Virus record (IMG/VR): IMGVR_UViG_3300040971_000025 | Coordinates: 1-36,845 of that record | DNA length: 36,845 nucleotides | Strand: one strand, 5' to 3' | From: a virus | Taxonomy: Duplodnaviria; Caudoviricetes | Part shown: positions 6,914-23,123 of the stretch, piece after piece | How positions within the stretch are numbered: position 1 is the stretch's first letter | Layout: each line of letters starts with the position of its first letter | Position numbers and translations under genes: made by a program | Notes under the pieces: model-generated | Databases searched by the model: none | The model's input: only the letters and a program-made list of their open reading frames with translations | What the model was told of the DNA's origin: nothing

Positions 6914-6963
6914 TTACCCAAATGGGTAAACTTTGTCCAGAAAATATTTATCCGCTTGGGGAT
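6914..6963. promoter_or_regulatory. OR-like operators
   Basis: Palindrome TTACCCAAATGGGTAA (6914-6929) and degenerate TTATCCGCTTGGGGAT (6948-6963) between cro and cI. Confidence 0.8.
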
Positions 6964-8215: not shown

Positions 8216-8267
8216 TTACCCATTTGGGCAAAATAACTCTTGCATAGTTTTCCCATTTGGGTAATAT
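8216..8267 (+). promoter_or_regulatory. OL-like operators and PL-like early promoter
   Basis: TTACCCATTTGGGCAA (8216-8231) and TTTCCCATTTGGGTAA (8249-8264) match the 6914 operator; TTGCAT (8240-8245)-16 bp-TAATAT (8262-8267). Confidence 0.8.
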
Positions 8268-8296: not shown

Positions 8297-8441
8297 GCTC
8301 ATCCACGGATCAGCCCACGGGAAGCGGAGTTTCCCTAAGCGCGGACGCGAAGGTGGGATGCAGAGCCAGGCACAGCTTGGACGCTCCGAAGGCCAGAGCG
8401 GATGCGGGGAGGGATGAGCAAGACGAACGAGTTCCTTGACA
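8297..8441 (+). ncRNA. Candidate structured leader RNA
   Basis: Closing stem GCTCATCC/GGATGAGC enclosing nested hairpins, followed by boxA-like GTTCCTTGACA. Confidence 0.4.
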
Positions 8442-8587
8442 GACAAATCAAACCGACCGGCAGAGATCAGCGGCTTCCAGGCCCAGGCTCCGGTCCTAAT
8501 ACAACGCAGCGCGGCATGGGGATGCAGAGCGCGGCGGTACAACAATAAAACAAGCGACGAGATGAATACAATATAACGAGGTGTGAG

Positions 8588-15952: not shown

Positions 15953-16113
15953 AACTCTACACCAAACAAGTCAACAACTGCCAGGAATGCCCCTACTTCT
16001 GCGACGAGGGCGAGTTTTGCAAGCATCCGTCGCGGATCATGCAACTACACGTCGTCGCGCAGTGGTGGACCGTGCCGGGGGATTGTCCGTTGCCGGAGGT
16101 TAAAGAAGGATGA
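15949..16113 (+). CDS. Small Cys-rich protein, 54 aa (MKLYTKQVNNCQEC...PGDCPLP)
   Basis: ATGA-coupled; same motif as previous gene. Confidence 0.65.
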   Translation: MKLYTKQVNNCQECPYFCDEGEFCKHPSRIMQLHVVAQWWTVPGDCPLPEVKEG

Positions 16114-16319
16114 CCCAAAAATGGCTGACCCTGGCCCAAGCCTGCGCCTACACTGGGCGCTCCGCATGGACGCTCAAGCGCAAAGCGCAGGAGGGCCTTA
16201 TCATCGGCCACCGGCCAGAGGGTAGCCAGTGGCAGTTCGACAGGGAGAGCATCGACGCATTTTTCACCCCGCCATTATCCAAGGCGGCATTTGACATTGT
16301 GAGGTCTTTGCGGAAATGA
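16110..16319 (+). CDS. xis: Excisionase (HTH_17-like)
   Basis: WLTLAQACAYTGRSAWTL...WQFDRESID; overlaps int start. Confidence 0.8.
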   Translation: MTQKWLTLAQACAYTGRSAWTLKRKAQEGLIIGHRPEGSQWQFDRESIDAFFTPPLSKAAFDIVRSLRK

Positions 16320-17335
16320 AATTGACCATGAGGCTTTACCAAAAATCACGCGACAGCGTTTATTACGTGGAGTTCGAGCGCGGCAAGTCCAGGTCGTTGA
16401 AGACCAAGGATCTGGCCGAAGCGCGAAAACTCTACAACGCGGTCAAAAAAGAGTACCTCGCCGGGCGTCTGTCAGAGATTCGCGGCGAGTCTCGCGTGAC
16501 GCTTGGTGAGTTTCGTGGCGAGTACGACAAATGGGCGCGGGATGCCCGGGAGCCGAAAACGTACAAGGCGGACATGCTGGCCCTGCAAAAGCTCGTTGAC
16601 GTGGCCGGGGAGTCGGCGAAGCTCGACAAGTTGACCCTGCGCCATGCGGACCTGATGATTGCCGCGTGCCGGAAGCGTGGGAACAAGGCGGGCACGATCA
16701 ACGCCTATGTGCGGCACCTGCGCACCGTGTGCAACAAGATGGTGGAATGGGCCTATCTGCCCGCGTCACCGTTCCGCACGCTGAAGGAAGTACCCAAGGA
16801 TCAGAAGGCCCCTCAGTACATCGAGTCGCGCTCCGTGGCGGCGTTCCTGGCCAGCATTGGAGACATGGACGAGAGGCGCATCCTGACGGCATACATCTAC
16901 AGCGGGAGGCGTCGGGCAGAGTTGTGCCGGTTGACGTGGCAGGACGTGGATTGGGAGAAAGAGGAATACTTCGTGGGCAAGTCCAAGGCCCACCTGAGCA
17001 AGTGGTATCCCATGCACCCGCTTTTCAAGGCCGTGCTCGAGTCCATGCCGTCGCGTGAGGGCCGCGTGTTCTCACGCTGGGCGCACCCGGACAGCATCAC
17101 GCATCTGGCGAAGGACGCCCTGCGCAACGCCGGGTATCCAGAAATGAATCTACATAAAATGAGGCATACGTTCGCCACGCTGCTGCAGGACCAGGGAGTT
17201 GACTTAGGAACCATCGGAGCGCTCTTGGGCCACACGGACAAGCGGGCGACCGAGATTTATACACACGTTACCGACACCAGGCAGAGAGAGGCCATCCGAA
17301 AGGTGATGGCTGGTCCGGTGGATTTGGGGGATTGA
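16316..17335 (+). CDS. int: Tyrosine integrase
   Basis: YSGRRRAEL (R), LHKMRHTFAT (HxxR), LLGH, TEIYTH (Y); N-terminal arm-binding-like region. Confidence 0.95.
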   Translation: MKLTMRLYQKSRDSVYYVEFERGKSRSLKTKDLAEARKLYNAVKKEYLAGRLSEIRGESRVTLGEFRGEYDKWARDAREPKTYKADMLALQKLVDVAGESAKLDKLTLRHADLMIAACRKRGNKAGTINAYVRHLRTVCNKMVEWAYLPASPFRTLKEVPKDQKAPQYIESRSVAAFLASIGDMDERRILTAYIYSGRRRAELCRLTWQDVDWEKEEYFVGKSKAHLSKWYPMHPLFKAVLESMPSREGRVFSRWAHPDSITHLAKDALRNAGYPEMNLHKMRHTFATLLQDQGVDLGTIGALLGHTDKRATEIYTHVTDTRQREAIRKVMAGPVDLGD

Positions 17336-17336
17336 G

Positions 17337-17642
17337 ATGGGTATCAAGGGCTATGACGAAGAAACGGACGAATCGTATGAGATTCACGAACTTCGCGCCG
17401 AGACCGAGCGACTCAAGGGCGAGGTGGCTTTTTTCGACAACAGATGCCCCAGGTGTAACTCAACACTTGGGTTGTTACATGAGAGTGAATGCCCGCTGTG
17501 CAACTCGCGCTCAGAGGTGGAGAGGTTGAGAGAGGCGTTGCGAGAAATTGGAGCTATGGCAGACGCACCACTCTGTCAGCGATCATGGATGAATGTGAGG
17601 TGTGTTGTTAGACGCGCCGAGGCGGATCGGCCGGTTTGTTAA
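17337..17642 (+). CDS. Accessory protein with double CxxC and coiled-coil motifs
   Basis: CPRC...CPLC flanked by LRAETERL and SEVERLRE. Confidence 0.6.
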   Translation: MGIKGYDEETDESYEIHELRAETERLKGEVAFFDNRCPRCNSTLGLLHESECPLCNSRSEVERLREALREIGAMADAPLCQRSWMNVRCVVRRAEADRPVC

Positions 17643-17646
17643 TTCT

Positions 17647-17685
17647 AAAAAAAAAGCGGCCCTGCAAACCATTTGCGAACCGCTT
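17647..17685 (-). terminator. Possible minus-strand terminator overlapping arm-type repeats
   Basis: AAGCGG..GCAAA-CCA-TTTGC..CCGCTT interrupted stem with A9 on its left. Confidence 0.45.
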
Positions 17686-17894
17686 ATATCTAACTACCTA
17701 ATTTTATAACTACTGGCTACTGATTACGAATCAGTTGCTGCTACCAACTGAGCTATCCTGGCGAACCGTGAAAACAGTAGGTATTCAAGTGTTTACTACG
17801 AGTCAAGAACTATTCAAACTTGGGCAAACTTGCGACGATGGTTCGCGCCCTGCGGACCTCTTTTTACCCACACCTGCGAGCCATTTGCAGACCG
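17661..17894. other. Probable attP: arm-type repeats flanking the tRNA-Thr core
   Basis: TGCRR(A/G)CC at 17663, 17674, 17851, 17875, 17886; AT-rich spacers; symmetric core CAACTGA-TTCGTAA-TCAGTAG (minus strand). Confidence 0.75.
17717..17762 (-). tRNA. 5' half of tRNA-Thr(CGT) (fragment, att core)
   Basis: GCCAGGA TA GCTC AGTTGGTA GCAGC A ACTGA TT CGT AA TCAGT AG; no T-arm or 3' acceptor follows; one extra C in the D-stem. Confidence 0.85.
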
Positions 17895-17917
17895 TAAATT
17901 TTGAAGAGGCACAAAAG

Positions 17918-18319
17918 ATGCATATCAAAAAGCGACACCCTAGAAGTTATCCAAAAGTTTTCTCAAACGGAAAATGGCGAGACGCCCACCGGGTAGTCAT
18001 GGAAGACTATCTAGGACGGCCCCTTGATCGGTGTGAAATAGTCCATCACCTCAACGGGAATATCACTGACTACAGTCTTGAAAATCTGGACATCATGCTG
18101 CTTTCTGCCCACACCAAGGGCCATAAGCATGGGCGCCCGATCCCGAAGGTCCAGGGCGAAAACAGCCCGCACGCAAAGCTCAACGAATTGTCAGTCGCAA
18201 AAATCAAAGCGCTCCTCAGATCCGGAGCAGTACAAAAGGAAATCGCGTCCCTTTACGGCGTCCACCCTACTCTCATCGGCAAGATCAAAAACCGCATTAT
18301 TTGGGCACATGTGGCATAG
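17918..18319 (+). CDS. HNH homing endonuclease with C-terminal DNA-binding HTH
   Basis: AHRVVME...VHHLNGNITDYSLENL...H; GENSPHAKL; QKEIASLYGVHPTLIGKIK. Confidence 0.85.
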   Translation: MHIKKRHPRSYPKVFSNGKWRDAHRVVMEDYLGRPLDRCEIVHHLNGNITDYSLENLDIMLLSAHTKGHKHGRPIPKVQGENSPHAKLNELSVAKIKALLRSGAVQKEIASLYGVHPTLIGKIKNRIIWAHVA

Positions 18320-18336
18320 GCCAACAGGAGTTTTCT

Positions 18337-18855
18337 ATGTACAAGTTATCCAAGGATTATGAAACTCTCCACGACTTGCTTTTACAGGGGCAAGAGCCAG
18401 TGTGTTTCGTTGAGAATAGGCGCGATTTTGCACCAAAGGTTGTACGCGACGTGTGCCAGGCCAAGAGACATGGGGCCTTTCGCATTAATGTGTCTGCCCG
18501 AGGGATAACATATGCCGCAGTCTACCCTTTTGAGTTGGAAAATGGTAGCCTAGGAGAGCGCGAGTTGTTTATTTCTTCCTGTCAAGAATGTGGACTTGAA
18601 TGGCTGCTGCCGTCCGCTGTTGATGCGGTTCAGCTAGAAGTTGAAAGGCTTGATGAACGTGACGGAAGGGCAAGCATCGAACTTTGCTTCGATGACGGGC
18701 TTAACCCATTTGCGAGAGAAACGCTGAAAATCCTTGATTTTGGAGTATCCGACAATATTTATGTCGTTGAGTCGCAAACGGTTGTCGCCCTTCGCGCCGA
18801 GGTGGAGCGTTTGAGGGAGCATATTCGTATGGGTTCGATGATACGCGAGGGGTGA
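18337..18855 (+). CDS. Hypothetical accessory protein, 172 aa
   Basis: AGGAG RBS before ATG 18337; EVERL motifs. Confidence 0.7.
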   Translation: MYKLSKDYETLHDLLLQGQEPVCFVENRRDFAPKVVRDVCQAKRHGAFRINVSARGITYAAVYPFELENGSLGERELFISSCQECGLEWLLPSAVDAVQLEVERLDERDGRASIELCFDDGLNPFARETLKILDFGVSDNIYVVESQTVVALRAEVERLREHIRMGSMIREG

Positions 18856-18880
18856 TAACATAATCCCCCCGCCCCCAACC

Positions 18881-18925
18881 TTCGCAATGCAGAGGCCAGG
18901 AGTTCGATCCTCCTCATCTCCACCA
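18881..18925 (+). tRNA. 3' half of tRNA-Ala(CGC) (fragment, att-type core)
   Basis: TT CGC AA TGCAG AGGCC AGGAG TTCGATC CTCCT CATCTCC A CCA; U70 and A73 Ala determinants; similarity starts exactly at the anticodon loop. Confidence 0.9.
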
Positions 18926-18932
18926 AGATTTC

Positions 18933-18968
18933 AGGCAGTTAGAGGAGCACTCTGACTGCCTATTTTTT
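18933..18968 (+). terminator. Terminator after the tRNA-Ala fragment
   Basis: AGGCAGTTAGAG-GAGCA-CTCTGACTGCCT followed by ATTTTTT. Confidence 0.8.
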
Positions 18969-19009
18969 CGTGGGTTGTGGATGTGGGTAATGACTTTTCA
19001 AATCATTGA

Positions 19010-22000
19010 CTAAACCACCTCGTGAACCCTCAAATAATAAAGCAGCGTCGTGACCCCGGCATACGTCGTGTACCTGGTATTCGTCAGCCCAATACTCGTG
19101 ATCGCACCGCCGTCAAATGTCCCTGTGCACAACAATGATCCGTCAACATACGCCGATATTGTTGTCCCGGAAATCACCAACTTGGCGTTGATCGTCTTCT
19201 TGTCTGGCTGATTTGAAACCGTAGTGCTTGTGGCCCCAGGAATCACGGCGAGAAGCTGCCCAAGCGTCACGTTGCTACTATCCGTCATGCCGACCATATA
19301 GGCAGCGGTGGCAGTGGTGATGCGCAGCATCAGCTCGCCAAGGCAGTTCGCGGCGTAGATCCAACCGAATTGGGCTTCGATTTCGCAGTCTCCGGTGGGC
19401 ATATCTCCCACAAACTCGACCATGGACGCGTAATTTTCCCAGGTCGAAGCGTTGCCGATGAACGACAGGTATCCGTTCGCAACTGTGGCCGAGGCCATGG
19501 CGGTCGCATCCCACAGTTCTGCGTCATAAGTCGAGTCAAAAAGATACAAATTGCCCGCCAACTCAGATGCAAACTCTTGGATGGCGAAATCGTCCCACTT
19601 GGTGACGACAGCGGCATATGTCGTGTAGCGCGTATGCCCGAGCCCAAGTTTTGCTACCTGCGCGAAGCCGACTGCCTCGGTAAAGACCAGGGCCCCGCCT
19701 ACCCAGAGTTGCAAAATGCCGTCGAGAATTTTCCATTTCAAATCTCGGTTCGAAACGAAGTCAACGCCTGTTTGATAGGCGACAAATCCAAGCGGCCTTG
19801 AGTAGTAAATGCCGCCTTTTGCTACCGCGCTTGAGTCATATAGACCGACGTAGCACTGCGTTCCGTCTGACAGCTCAATCCAGAAGTAGACCTCGCCCAT
19901 ATTCGAGTTCCCTGCCTCTTCCCATGCCAGATTTATAGCAGCTTCGAAGTTTTTAGGTATCGCGCCTTTCCATTTCACATAATTCGAAGCCCACGCGCCC
20001 CATGTGCTGGCATTGCTCATCGGCACGAGTTTCCCGTCTGTGGCGCTCAAGGACGCCAGGCCGATACTCTCCCAGTATGTCGCATTAAGCGTGTCAAATG
20101 TGTCCATGTATGAGAACAGGCCAGGATCAGGGAGCGTGAGGCGCAGCGCGGCTCGCTGCCAAGATTCGTATCCGTCACGGACGGCACCGACCTGCACCAG
20201 CAGCCCATATGCTCCGCTTCCTTCCAGCTCTGAGCCCTCAATCGTCCTTGTCAGGACAGACAGTCCTGTGTCAGACAATAAGACAGAGCCTGCACTCCCT
20301 GTCTCGTCGAGGGGGAAGACCTCGAAATCGTAGGTTGTCCCAACTTCAGGGGTAACGCTTCCTGCGGTCCACTCCAGCGGTTCGCCCCCGGTTTCCTGTA
20401 GCCGGTTTCGATGCGCCCACGTAATGACAAGTGGAGCGGTAAAAATAGTCGCTGGATCTGGGGCTGCGTCACCGTCAACGGCAAGATTCGCGGGTCTATA
20501 TGGCCTTATCGCCCGCTCCGACATCGTCACAGTGTCTTCCGGAGCGTCTACGATAGAGAGCCTCCCCATGCCGGACGCTGTCAGAATCTTCGCTGAGACT
20601 TCGTCGCTGGTGACATACTCCACGTCGTCGCTGGCGGCGTAGTTGTCCCACACGAGCATCGCCGCTCCGTCCGCATGTTGAGCAGGAACAGTGTCAAGAC
20701 ACCCACGCCGCAGTGTGGCCAGGGTATCAGTAACCGCCTCGACAAACACAATCTCGTCATCGATCTGCGCGAACGATCTGGCCTCAACCTCGTCTAGGTC
20801 AACACCGTCCTTGATCGGAACTGCTGTCTCAAATTGCCCGAGAGCTCCATCAAGATAAGCGATAGGGCAGAAATCGAGCGTCCCGCTTTCGACATACCCT
20901 GCCCCGGAATCAACAAGTATTTCCGCGTTGATCTCTCCTGCACTGCGGCCTGCGGCAACCATCAGGTATCCAAGTTCTGGTAGGCTTGCCAACTTCGCTG
21001 CTGCGTCAGTCTCTCCGAGTTGGCGCACGATCTCATAGTAAGGGGTCTCTGTGACAAGACGCGGAGATGCGGCCAGTGGGGTAAAAGACGGGTTTTCCCA
21101 CACCGTAGGCTCAGCCTCGACGTATGTGATGTCGGGCAATGCAAATACGTCCTGGACGCACTGAATGCGGACCACATTTTCAACGCCATCACCGAAAGCG
21201 ATTTCAGTCACGCGCATGACATAAGATGTGGTGACGCCTGCTCCATCTTCGTCCTGCTCTGCCCATTCCCACACAAACACGTCGCCGAGGTTGAGCCCTG
21301 CGGCCGCGCGGTTGGCGTAGATCGTGGCGGACACAAGGGGCGTACTCATGGCCTTGAGATCACGCGCCGCAACCTTGGCTGCAATGGCCTGATTTGCAAA
21401 ACCCATATACTCGACGCTTGCCGGGATGATTGCGCCCTGTTGCTGGATCATCGCCAGATTCTGGAGCGTGACTGTCTCAATCTGTCCGGTTTCGTTCGAG
21501 TTGTAAGAGAGCGTGACTTCGTTCGCCAGTTCCGCCATTGTCTGTTTTGAGTATGTCTCAACTCGGCTGATGTTCGATTTGTCCAGCACGAGCAGTGAGG
21601 ACTCGTCGTATCCTCCACGAATCAGCTTGAGCACAAACTTTCCGGTGGACCTGTCAACGTAGAGTGCGGCGTCGATATGCCGCATAACCTCTTCCACAAA
21701 ATCCCAAATGTCCGCCTGCTGGCTCCACAAAAGAGAGATGCCCATGCCCTCGTCAAAAAGTGTATCAGCAGCAGCAGCAAAGCTGACGTCGTCGATGTCT
21801 ACGTCTGTGTATCCGATGCCCCAATTATCATCGGTCAGACACTCCCGGATGGTGTGCACGGGGTTCATGTCTGAGTAATAGCCGTAGCGATCTTCTCCCG
21901 CAGTGCCATGGTACTGGGTTATGGAAACAAGGTCATATGATACGCTGCCTGTGTCCAAGAACGCCCCAGCCGCCTCAAGCCCGAACTGGTAGCCCCTGAC

Positions 22001-22930
22001 CTCGGCAAGAGATCCGGTGATTATTTGCGATGCAACCACCCCTCCGCCAGAGTCTTTCAGCACCGCCGAAAGCCCGGCTCCTGTGTCGGCTATCGCCACC
22101 CTGTACCACACACCAACGGTCAAGAACTCGTCCGTCAAGTCTGTGCCCTTGAACGTCGGGAATCCGCTCCACGTTTGGCCTGGATACGGCTCGAACGTGG
22201 CTACTGGATCTCCTGCTGCGTCCGTGAGCATAAAAACTGCAACGTCTCTCTCTTCTTGCACGCTGTTCAACTTGAAAGAAAACTCAATTCCGCCGACAGT
22301 CCATTCACCAAGCGAACCGCCCCACACAGCCCACGCCTCCCCGCCATTCTGCTTGGTTGGGTCATGCGTGATACCATCTCCAGAAACATAATACACATCA
22401 GGGAGCGACCCTGCAGGTATTTCGAGCGTGTAGTTGTTGAGGCTGGCCGTCTCCTCTTCGTAGATAGGTGGGACGTGATCTTCCACTGAATAGTAGCCAA
22501 TGGCTGCTTTCTCGACATACCACTGCTCGGCGCCATTATCGCGCACGCGGATGCGCTGCGGGAGCCATCCCCAGTCTTTCGGGTATGGATTCAGCCCGAT
22601 ATAGCACTGTCTCAAGACGGCGCAGCACGCGCCGCGAAATGCCGGAAGCAGAGACGCTCCGAGCTTGGCCGCGAGGTAGGAGTTCTGTCCCTGCGTCGGA
22701 CCGCCCATTTCGATGTCAACTTGACCAGTGACGCCACCTTCTCTTTTCTCTCCGCCGAACAAATCGGGCTTGTTGATCGCCAGAGGGCCGCCTGTATTAT
22801 TTCCAACCCATGCCTTGTTCCCGCCAACCCTAATGCGCACGAGTTTATCGACAGGCCCATGGCACAGGGCCATGTGCATTCCGACGTAGTATTTGTAACC
22901 AACGGTTACGCTACTGCTACTGCCGCCCAT
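19010..22930 (-). CDS. Tail tip / central fibre protein (D3112/GTA-type tail domain) with extra beta-rich domains, 1306 aa
   Basis: VTVGYKYYVGMHMALCHGPVD, LFGGEKREGG, MNPVHTIRECLTD motifs; last tail gene; ATG 22930. Confidence 0.85.
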   Translation of the reverse strand: MGGSSSSVTVGYKYYVGMHMALCHGPVDKLVRIRVGGNKAWVGNNTGGPLAINKPDLFGGEKREGGVTGQVDIEMGGPTQGQNSYLAAKLGASLLPAFRGACCAVLRQCYIGLNPYPKDWGWLPQRIRVRDNGAEQWYVEKAAIGYYSVEDHVPPIYEEETASLNNYTLEIPAGSLPDVYYVSGDGITHDPTKQNGGEAWAVWGGSLGEWTVGGIEFSFKLNSVQEERDVAVFMLTDAAGDPVATFEPYPGQTWSGFPTFKGTDLTDEFLTVGVWYRVAIADTGAGLSAVLKDSGGGVVASQIITGSLAEVRGYQFGLEAAGAFLDTGSVSYDLVSITQYHGTAGEDRYGYYSDMNPVHTIRECLTDDNWGIGYTDVDIDDVSFAAAADTLFDEGMGISLLWSQQADIWDFVEEVMRHIDAALYVDRSTGKFVLKLIRGGYDESSLLVLDKSNISRVETYSKQTMAELANEVTLSYNSNETGQIETVTLQNLAMIQQQGAIIPASVEYMGFANQAIAAKVAARDLKAMSTPLVSATIYANRAAAGLNLGDVFVWEWAEQDEDGAGVTTSYVMRVTEIAFGDGVENVVRIQCVQDVFALPDITYVEAEPTVWENPSFTPLAASPRLVTETPYYEIVRQLGETDAAAKLASLPELGYLMVAAGRSAGEINAEILVDSGAGYVESGTLDFCPIAYLDGALGQFETAVPIKDGVDLDEVEARSFAQIDDEIVFVEAVTDTLATLRRGCLDTVPAQHADGAAMLVWDNYAASDDVEYVTSDEVSAKILTASGMGRLSIVDAPEDTVTMSERAIRPYRPANLAVDGDAAPDPATIFTAPLVITWAHRNRLQETGGEPLEWTAGSVTPEVGTTYDFEVFPLDETGSAGSVLLSDTGLSVLTRTIEGSELEGSGAYGLLVQVGAVRDGYESWQRAALRLTLPDPGLFSYMDTFDTLNATYWESIGLASLSATDGKLVPMSNASTWGAWASNYVKWKGAIPKNFEAAINLAWEEAGNSNMGEVYFWIELSDGTQCYVGLYDSSAVAKGGIYYSRPLGFVAYQTGVDFVSNRDLKWKILDGILQLWVGGALVFTEAVGFAQVAKLGLGHTRYTTYAAVVTKWDDFAIQEFASELAGNLYLFDSTYDAELWDATAMASATVANGYLSFIGNASTWENYASMVEFVGDMPTGDCEIEAQFGWIYAANCLGELMLRITTATAAYMVGMTDSSNVTLGQLLAVIPGATSTTVSNQPDKKTINAKLVISGTTISAYVDGSLLCTGTFDGGAITSIGLTNTRYTTYAGVTTLLYYLRVHEVV

Positions 22931-23123
22931 TTTTCCCCCGGACATATGCGGCCACCATGTCGGCCATTGCATCCCCAAGCGCGTCCATCTTGGAGATCGG
23001 GATTCCGCCCTCTTTAATCAGTGCGCGCCGCAAGTCTGGATGCGAGTTGAAAAACTTCAACGCTCCCCTCCCGCACGTATGACAGGCGCGTAGATCTCTC
23101 ATGGTCACGAGTAGCTCACTCAT
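22917..23123 (-). CDS. Small tail-tip module protein, 68 aa (MSELLVTMRDLRACHTCGRG...)
   Basis: ATG 23123 overlaps upstream stop; resembles the small gene at this position in D3112-like tail modules. Confidence 0.65.
   Translation of the reverse strand: MSELLVTMRDLRACHTCGRGALKFFNSHPDLRRALIKEGGIPISKMDALGDAMADMVAAYVRGKNGRQ

What the first reader, a model, noticed from the sequence alone, without database searches (positions are those of the whole stretch)
17661..18990. Two different tRNA half-genes beside a single integrase: dual or switched attachment site
Seen: a minus-strand 5' half of tRNA-Thr(CGT) at 17717-17762 and a plus-strand 3' half of tRNA-Ala(CGC) at 18881-18925, each breaking at or just past the anticodon arm. 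Their 7-nt loops differ by one base (TTCGTAA vs TTCGCAA). The Thr site has arm-like repeats on both sides (18/22 identity between 17661 and 17873). The Ala site has a terminator and GTGG(G/A)T repeats on its right only. Known: tyrosine integrases often cross over in anticodon loops and attP restores the disrupted half. Inference: either one integrase can use two tRNA targets, or the phage has switched from an Ala to a Thr site and kept a relic.
Basis: partly seen in the sequence, partly recalled or inferred. Interest (0 to 1): 0.8.

Follow-up and report, generated by a model that had tools for sequence, protein, structure and literature searches.

The report
Leftover attachment site after integrase swap
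This bacterial virus genome carries pieces of two host tRNA genes: the threonine piece is likely the working docking site of its one integration enzyme, and the alanine piece is likely a leftover half of an older docking site whose different enzyme was lost, which would make it an ordinary scar of gene swapping between viruses rather than a two-target enzyme.

Summary
Both half-genes are real, at the stated coordinates, and match tRNA genes of one Desulfovibrionales family. The Thr(CGT) 5' half has a promoter-like leader and arm repeats on both sides. It belongs to the adjacent integrase: 24 of 42 related loci sit at Thr(CGT), none at Ala. A 37-kb prophage with a 72%-identical integrase shows the integrated product, a tRNA rebuilt from a phage promoter and 5' half. 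The Ala(CGC) 3' half, terminator and repeats match the right arm of attP sites served by a different integrase family (26% identity; L161, L283). Here that integrase, its left arm and its left core half-site are missing. A complete phage keeps the same orphan half with no detected integrase. Best reading: a Thr cassette replaced an Ala cassette, and the terminator-bearing right arm stayed. One integrase using both tRNAs is unlikely (about 4%). The extra D-stem base at 17740 is probably an assembly error. The scan noted similar relics and 5'-restoring sites on other DNA. Ordinary phage mosaicism, with an uncommon but known 5'-restoring site.

The parts
16110..16319 (+). Excisionase (xis), HTH_17
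   Evidence: PF12728 E 9e-8; PHROG 66; 66% identical to the gene before the G001 prophage integrase
16316..17335 (+). Tyrosine integrase, 339 aa, of a Desulfovibrionales family that mostly targets tRNA-Thr(CGT)
   Evidence: PF00589; R, H, R, H, Y catalytic-type columns invariant in the alignment; 24 of 42 family loci at Thr(CGT); only PF00589 match in the record
17337..17642 (+). Small ORF of unknown function between int and attP
   Evidence: No Pfam or PHROG match
17645..17684 (-). Left arm of the Thr attP: two arm-type repeats (17661, 17672) folded into a hairpin plus U-run that would end the transcript of the 5' half
   Evidence: Repeat D7; hairpin z -3.3; the same arm-in-hairpin layout in L080 and the G001 junction; PWM 8.6 bits at 17672
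17717..17762 (-). 5' half of tRNA-Thr(CGT), core of the likely live attP; predicted 7-bp crossover at the loop 17724-17730
   Evidence: Matches host genes; identity ends 2 nt past the loop at the G001 junction; extra base at 17740 is probably an assembly error
17763..17806 (-). Phage-borne promoter-like leader for the rebuilt tRNA (-35-like hexamer 17806-17801, 17-bp spacer, -10-like hexamer 17783-17778)
   Evidence: Same TTGAC-N17-TA spacing in L080, in the G001 restored gene and in host Thr genes; not called by the generic sigma-70 scan; function inferred
17849..17894 (+). Right arm of the Thr attP: repeats at 17849, 17873 and 17884
   Evidence: 17884 is the best site in the genome (17.1 bits) for a PWM trained on relatives only
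17918..18319 (+). HNH endonuclease
   Evidence: PF13392 E 8e-7; PHROG 59
18337..18855 (+). ORF of unknown function; partial homologues in other phages and contigs
   Evidence: no Pfam or PHROG match
18881..18925 (+). 3' half of tRNA-Ala(CGC): orphan core plus restored half of a former attP; left core half-site missing
   Evidence: 45 of 45 identical to host genes in 11 genomes and to L161 and L283 attP; the bases 5' of the loop differ from all relatives with a left flank
18933..18968 (+). Intrinsic terminator of the phage (Ala-attP) type, facing the convergent tail gene
   Evidence: the 85 nt after CCA are 63/86 identical to L161 and 41/90 to a host locus
18969..19009 (+). Right-arm repeats of the Ala-type integrase (18969, 18982) and a conserved motif after them
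   Evidence: Aligned with L161, L283, L317, L323; 18982 ties for top Ala-arm PWM site
19010..22978 (-). Tail protein, last gene of the virion operon
   Evidence: PHROG 1101; 54% identical to the tail gene next to the Ala attL-type junction in L381/G405

Best explanation
The window's one detected integrase likely inserts the phage into the anticodon loop of host tRNA-Thr(CGT), supplying its own promoter and 5' half to rebuild the gene, and the Ala(CGC) half is likely the inactive right arm of an older attachment site whose different integrase was lost when the Thr cassette replaced it. Shown: both halves; arm repeats on both sides of the Thr core; the integrated form in a relative; homology of 18881-19009 to the right arm of Ala-type attP sites; no Ala-type integrase or left core half-site in the sequence held. 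Inferred: crossover at the 7-nt loop; promoter and terminator activity; the order of events (Ala first, Thr incoming); retention of the right arm because its terminator likely stops transcription from the HNH/ORF genes running into the convergent tail operon.
For: Thr side. The three closest distinct relatives (72%, 69%, 53% identity) all have the Thr 5' half on the minus strand after int. Of 42 family loci examined, 24 lie at Thr(CGT), 5 at Asn(GTT), 3 near Arg-like pieces, 1 near Ser, 9 have no tRNA piece, and 0 lie at Ala (L080 and L081 are duplicates). The G001 prophage has direct repeats of the 5' half 37,311 bp apart: host promoter plus fragment beside int, phage arms plus phage promoter plus a complete tRNA at the far end. 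Ala side. L283 has an intact 372-aa integrase, left arms, core, the same terminator and the same right repeats. That integrase is 26% identical to the window's and lies across a 100/100 split in the tree. Its family lies at Ala(CGC) in 2 clear and 1 probable of 30 genomic loci. L381 shows host gene, full tRNA-Ala, this terminator and tail genes 54-64% identical to the window's. No Ala-type integrase remnant was found in the window (tblastn and blastn). A parallel orphan exists: a 40.7-kb genome with direct terminal repeats (G406) has a 45-aa integrase stub fused to the Ala half and no PF00589 or PF00239 match. Direction: the window's early genes are 73-92% DNA-identical to Ala phage L161, while Thr phages G004 and the G001 prophage share only 26-52% protein identity outside xis-int. 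0 of 2 long Thr-type records carry the Ala half.
Against: No recombination was assayed. Public data are k=31-style contigs that break inside each 45-46-nt half, so neither attL/attR junctions nor the join across the Ala half are shown. The record is rated 52% complete and the same integrase is on record on a 41,020-bp contig, so an Ala-type integrase in about 4 kb of unseen DNA is not excluded. An Ala-type arm motif at 17864 inside the Thr arm is unexplained: 94 of 5000 shuffles gave one, and it is one of only two such sites in the genome. G405 (L381) showed neither an integrase nor a second Ala piece (61% complete). No contig with an integrase above 72% identity could be read with its flanks, so it is unknown whether the two-site layout recurs. 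Mosaic genomes make the direction of the swap uncertain.
Confidence: 0.78

Rival explanations
1. Reverse order: a phage that already used tRNA-Thr picked up tail genes from an Ala-type phage or prophage, and the Ala right arm came along attached to the tail module. The site is still inert.
For: In L161, L283 and L381 the Ala right arm abuts the tail end; the window's tail genes are 54-64% identical to those of G405; the junction falls exactly at the loop edge.
Against: The early genes on the other side of the cassette are also closest to an Ala phage (73-92% DNA identity to L161), so both flanks look Ala-type and xis-int-attP looks like the incoming piece.
Confidence: 0.1
2. The Ala right half is a helper-dependent site: shaped like an attL (foreign left side, loop, right arm), it would be recombined by an Ala-type integrase supplied by a co-resident prophage, giving a second way to dock or to trade modules.
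For: The 45-nt half is perfectly conserved against hosts, and both right repeats and the motif after them are kept; orphan halves recur (G406); an Ala-type repeat lies at 17864 in the orientation of the inverted left-arm site of L161 and L283.
Against: The left core half-site seen in host attB and in intact attP sites is absent; the 17864 copy is 1 kb away and sits between Thr arm sites; recent loss or terminator function explains the conservation as well.
Confidence: 0.06
3. One integrase uses both sites: Thr(CGT) through the 5'-half site and Ala(CGC) through the 3'-half site.
For: The loops differ by one base; for mv4 Int any overlap works if both partners share it (10.1101/2023.11.06.565760, section 16 read), so an Ala core could pair with an Ala attB; the family has changed targets before (Asn, Arg-like).
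Against: 0 of 42 family loci at Ala; no Thr-type arm site within 250 bp of the Ala core (best 1.9 bits); the bases flanking the loop differ from the Thr core on both sides; the Ala site's repeats belong to another integrase family; the orphan persists in a phage with no detected integrase.
Confidence: 0.04
4. Assembly artefact: two low-coverage phage genomes were joined through the 45-nt tRNA-Ala repeat, so the two sites never share a molecule.
For: No contig bridges the half with 31 or more letters on both sides; host tRNA depth is far above phage depth.
Against: Both junctions exist in the runs at similar depth (about 3-4 on each side); the left junction (X1 record 6) would still be an Ala core without integrase or arms on the same piece as the ORF; together the two sides give one non-redundant lambdoid gene set.
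Confidence: 0.04

Closest known systems
Islander anticodon-centred (A-site) islands with a 5' tDNA fragment (Hudson, Lau and Williams, PMC4383910; parts 1-2 of 3 of the text read)
   Same: Tyrosine integrase, crossover in the anticodon loop, element restores the split tRNA; 159 of 3919 islands leave a 5' fragment, as the Thr cassette's relative does in G001.
   Different: Seen here as a free attP in a phage of a Desulfovibrionales family; the same family also uses the 3'-restoring layout and both orientations at the same tRNA.
Lambda-type heterobivalent attP with arm repeats flanking a tRNA core and a terminator between core and right arm, e.g. mycobacteriophage CrimD and Pixie (PMC3203893; passages read) and Cluster J (PMC3706429; passages read)
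   Same: Pairs or triplets of 9-11-bp arm repeats on both sides of the core; a terminator between core and right arm, as in the Ala-type site; related phages with different integrases and targets.
   Different: In the passages read each of those phages has one complete site; the window has one complete site plus half of another family's site.
mv4 Int / tRNA-Ser system (bioRxiv 10.1101/2023.11.06.565760; abstract and section 16 read)
   Same: 7-bp overlap between inverted core sites; overlap identity between partners sets specificity.
   Different: mv4 retargeting keeps one integrase and its arms and changes the core; here the second core comes with arms of another integrase family.
Partial loss of an integration cassette, as in TM4 (PMC3203893; passage read)
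   Same: A temperate ancestor's cassette is partly deleted and a neighbouring piece is kept.
   Different: TM4 lost int and attP and kept xis; the window lost int and the left arm, kept the right arm, and gained a replacement cassette.

Membership tests
tRNA-targeting tyrosine integrase attP (Thr site) | Adjacent PF00589 integrase with catalytic residues | tested here: met
tRNA-targeting tyrosine integrase attP (Thr site) | Identity block to a host tRNA gene that includes the crossover subsite | tested here: met
   one extra base is probably an assembly error
tRNA-targeting tyrosine integrase attP (Thr site) | Arm-type repeats on both sides of the core, shared with relatives | tested here: met
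   PWM from relatives: 17884 (17.1 bits), 17672 (8.6 bits)
5'-fragment (5'-restoring) A-site islands | Integrated form has a 5' fragment at one end and a full gene with element-derived 5' half at the other | tested here: met
   Shown for the 72%-identical relative in G001, not for the window's own phage
tRNA-targeting tyrosine integrase attP (Thr site) | Site recombines with attB | not testable with these tools
   Contigs break inside the half-gene; no assay
Complete Ala(CGC) attP of the L283/L161 type | 3' half, terminator and right-arm repeats | tested here: met
Complete Ala(CGC) attP of the L283/L161 type | Left core half-site and left-arm repeats within about 120 bp of the loop | tested here: not met
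   Left flank unlike relatives; best PWM site within 120 bp is 5.5 bits, against 11-14 on the right
Complete Ala(CGC) attP of the L283/L161 type | Cognate integrase of that family upstream | tested here: not met
   No remnant in the 36.8 kb held; record incomplete
Dual-target integrase system | Both cores carry the same integrase's arm sites | tested here: not met
   Best Thr-arm score near the Ala core 1.9 bits
Dual-target integrase system | Family members found integrated at both tRNAs | tested here: not met
   0 of 42 at Ala; none of 104 metagenome loci with the Ala 3' piece encodes a close relative of the window's integrase

The most novel reading that the evidence does not exclude
Orphan tRNA-Ala right arms in these phages are kept as helper-dependent recombination sites: a phage with its own Thr integrase, or with none, borrows the Ala-type integrase of a co-resident prophage to dock at a second tRNA or to swap tail modules at a fixed joint.
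Probability: 0.07. Interest if true: 0.65.

Novelty: new member of a known kind. Interest (0 to 1): 0.25.

Why it matters
As read, it is a clear snapshot of an integration-cassette swap in a phage of sulfate-reducing bacteria. It also warns that att-site finders can call the wrong tRNA target when an old half-site stays in place. It supplies a predicted int-xis-attP kit for tRNA-Thr(CGT) that could seed an integrating vector for this host group, and an example of the uncommon 5'-restoring layout in which the phage's promoter would drive a host tRNA. It would matter much more if the orphan arm proved active with a borrowed integrase.

Tried and rejected
ARAGORN finds no whole tRNA in the window. 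Rfam gave only a sub-threshold permuted-tmRNA match (E 0.59) on the Ala T-arm; rejected. Single-protein scans of viral contigs found no close integrase relatives, and annotated phages gave only hits under 60% identity, 22-29% among the 20 listed. Inversion between the two inverted loops was considered: by inspection, joining the Thr 5' half to the Ala 3' half pairs neither the acceptor nor the anticodon stem, and relatives show the Thr site already in this orientation; rejected. Capture of the Ala half by imprecise excision from the host was rejected: the two tRNA genes lie about 350 kb apart in G022 and the downstream DNA is phage-type. Laying contigs could not show attL or attR, because the halves are longer than the apparent word length. 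Run X5 holds only diverged relatives (share 0.07) and is not used as habitat evidence. A weak C-rich likeness between 18864-18880 and the DNA before Ala-type integrase genes was noticed but is low-complexity and not counted. No integrase lies in the 9.6 kb downstream of the G001 tRNA-Ala. The G001 family gave only one member of the Thr-integrase family in 35 genomes. Williams 2002 was not held, so its subclass names are not used. Five paper searches (listings and abstract starts seen) showed no report of this arrangement; that is weak evidence of absence. No look-alike stretch was found among earlier scan findings. No structure or complex prediction was run.

Full report
Setting. The window is a whole virus record, linear and rated 52% complete. 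It is a lambdoid siphophage with HK97-type head genes, tail genes on the minus strand and an early operon on the plus strand ending in xis and a tyrosine integrase. Named relatives of the integrase come from Pseudodesulfovibrio, Maridesulfovibrio, Desulfovibrio and Bilophila. The order is xis, int, small ORF, Thr half (minus), HNH, ORF, Ala half (plus), terminator, then the end of the convergent tail gene.

Observation. The Ala piece matches 16 of 301 genomes drawn from the order, all within the 35-genome family of G001, with a reversed control of 0. The Thr piece matches 22 of those 35. Nine genomes hold both exactly, so one host can offer both targets. The Thr half in the window has one extra base at 17740. 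No contig in four runs of one sample carries it, and a phage-depth contig overhangs by the 7 letters expected without it; I treat it as an assembly error.

The Thr site belongs to the integrase. I examined 42 loci of the integrase family: 14, leaving out the distant hits, L088, L091 and two duplicates of genomes already counted. Of these, 24 lie at tRNA-Thr(CGT), 5 at Asn(GTT), 3 near Arg-like pieces, 1 near Ser, 9 show no tRNA piece and none lies at Ala. L080 and L081 (69% identity, duplicates of each other) have the same free attP: arms, 5' half, promoter-like leader, arms. G001 holds a prophage with a 72%-identical integrase between direct repeats of the 5' half 37,311 bp apart. Beside int is the host promoter and 5' fragment. 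At the far end are phage arms, a different promoter and a complete tRNA. Identity at that junction stops 2 nt past the loop, which points to a 7-bp crossover in the loop (inferred). A weight matrix trained only on relatives ranks 17884 first in the genome and also finds 17672. This layout is uncommon but known: 159 of 3919 Islander islands (PMC4383910).

The Ala site belongs to another integrase family. L161 and L283 carry the same 45 nt, a homologous terminator, paired right repeats and a shared motif after them. On their left they have an inverted-core half-site, three arm repeats and an integrase. The L283 enzyme is intact, 26% identical to the window's, and separated from it by a fully supported branch in a 17-protein tree. 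Its family sits at anticodon loops of several tRNAs, including Ala(CGC) in 2 clear and 1 probable of 30 loci (read by eye). L381 shows an integrated junction: host gene, whole tRNA-Ala(CGC), this terminator type, then tail genes related to the window's. No integrase was found in that 61%-complete record. In the window, homology to these sites starts at the first base of the loop and runs to about 19020; nothing of the integrase or left core remains.

Loss of the Ala integrase recurs. L161's gene is internally deleted (an assembly fault is possible). In L323/L382 a 45-residue stub, 91% identical to the L283 N-terminus, is fused to the Ala half. That genome has direct terminal repeats and no PF00589 or PF00239 match. 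So the orphan half persists without a Thr integrase. Conversely, the G001 prophage and G004 have the Thr site and no Ala half (0 of 2).

Mechanism. The likely history is replacement of xis-int(Ala)-left arm by an incoming xis-int(Thr)-attP-HNH-ORF segment, with the right crossover at the old core. Both flanks resemble Ala-type phages more than Thr-type ones: 73-92% DNA identity to L161 in the early genes and 54-64% protein identity to G405 in the tail, against 26-52% protein identity to the Thr phages outside xis-int. The retained piece holds a strong plus-strand terminator facing the tail operon, a plausible reason to keep it (inferred).

Against this reading. No recombination was measured. 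Contigs break within each half, so integration at either tRNA and the join across the Ala half are not shown. About 4 kb may be missing, judged from a 41,020-bp contig with the same integrase. An Ala-type repeat at 17864 is one of only two such motifs in the genome and arose in 94 of 5000 shuffles of a region chosen after the fact; I cannot explain it. The mv4 work shows that overlap sequence itself is flexible when partners match, so dual use is not barred in principle; it fails here on arms, core flanks and family distribution.

Comparison and novelty. It works like a lambda-type attP at a tRNA anticodon loop and passes each membership test that could be run for the Thr site. The Ala site fails the tests for a complete attP. 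Five paper searches did not show this exact arrangement; I saw listings, parts 1-2 of PMC4383910, passages of PMC3203893, PMC3706429 and PMC13709724, and the abstract and one section of the mv4 preprint. No supplements were read. Earlier scan notes describe similar relics and 5'-restoring sites in other genomes (unchecked). Verdict: real, explained by known processes, a new member of a known kind; interest 0.25.

Noticed in passing
L002-L004, L080-L086, L345-L370: One integrase family uses tRNA-Thr(CGT) in several layouts: 5' half or 3' half supplied, and tRNA on either strand relative to int. How it flips layout at one target was not studied.
   Followed up: partly
L185-L206 (host tRNA-Thr genes): 8 of 22 host genes have a leader like the phage attP leader, 8 have the leader of the displaced host copy in G001, and 6 have others. 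These may be promoter scars of decayed prophages, or the source of the phage leader.
   Followed up: partly
window 17864-17872 (-): An Ala-type arm motif inside the Thr right arm, one of two in the genome; 94 of 5000 shuffles gave one. Unexplained.
   Followed up: partly
L382:3396-3570 (G406), also L323: Complete 40.7-kb phage with its integrase deleted to a 45-aa stub fused to the tRNA-Ala half; short similarity to the loop at the breakpoint suggests self-deletion or microhomology; no recombinase detected, so possibly now non-integrating.
   Followed up: partly
L161:6055-6830 (-): Ala-type integrase with an internal deletion and frameshift just after the N-terminal arm-binding part, close to where the L323 deletion starts; a PAPS-reductase gene lies between xis and int.
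   Followed up: partly
L163/L179 (G001:C21:9620-9740): Host tRNA-Ala(CGC) followed by the phage-type terminator and arm-like repeats, then ORFs that look like copper-resistance and UV-repair genes (by eye); possibly an island end or scar.
   Followed up: partly
L240, L182/L183, loose ends at 18884 in X2-X4: Other elements with other integrases also leave 3' fragments at tRNA-Ala(CGC), so it is a shared hot spot in this host family.
   Followed up: no
window 17337-17642 and 18337-18855: Both small ORFs contain a shared short coiled-coil-like motif, also seen at DNA level (repeats D2 and D4); a possible recombination joint between early-gene modules.
   Followed up: no
L090:7400-7480: A distant family member (32%) appears to carry a 5' half of tRNA-Gln(CTG) (by eye).
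   Followed up: no
window 6914-6929 and 8216-8264: Palindromic repeats similar to the Ala-arm motif lie in the immunity region; more likely operator sites. Part of 8330-8463 is 79% identical to G406.
   Followed up: no
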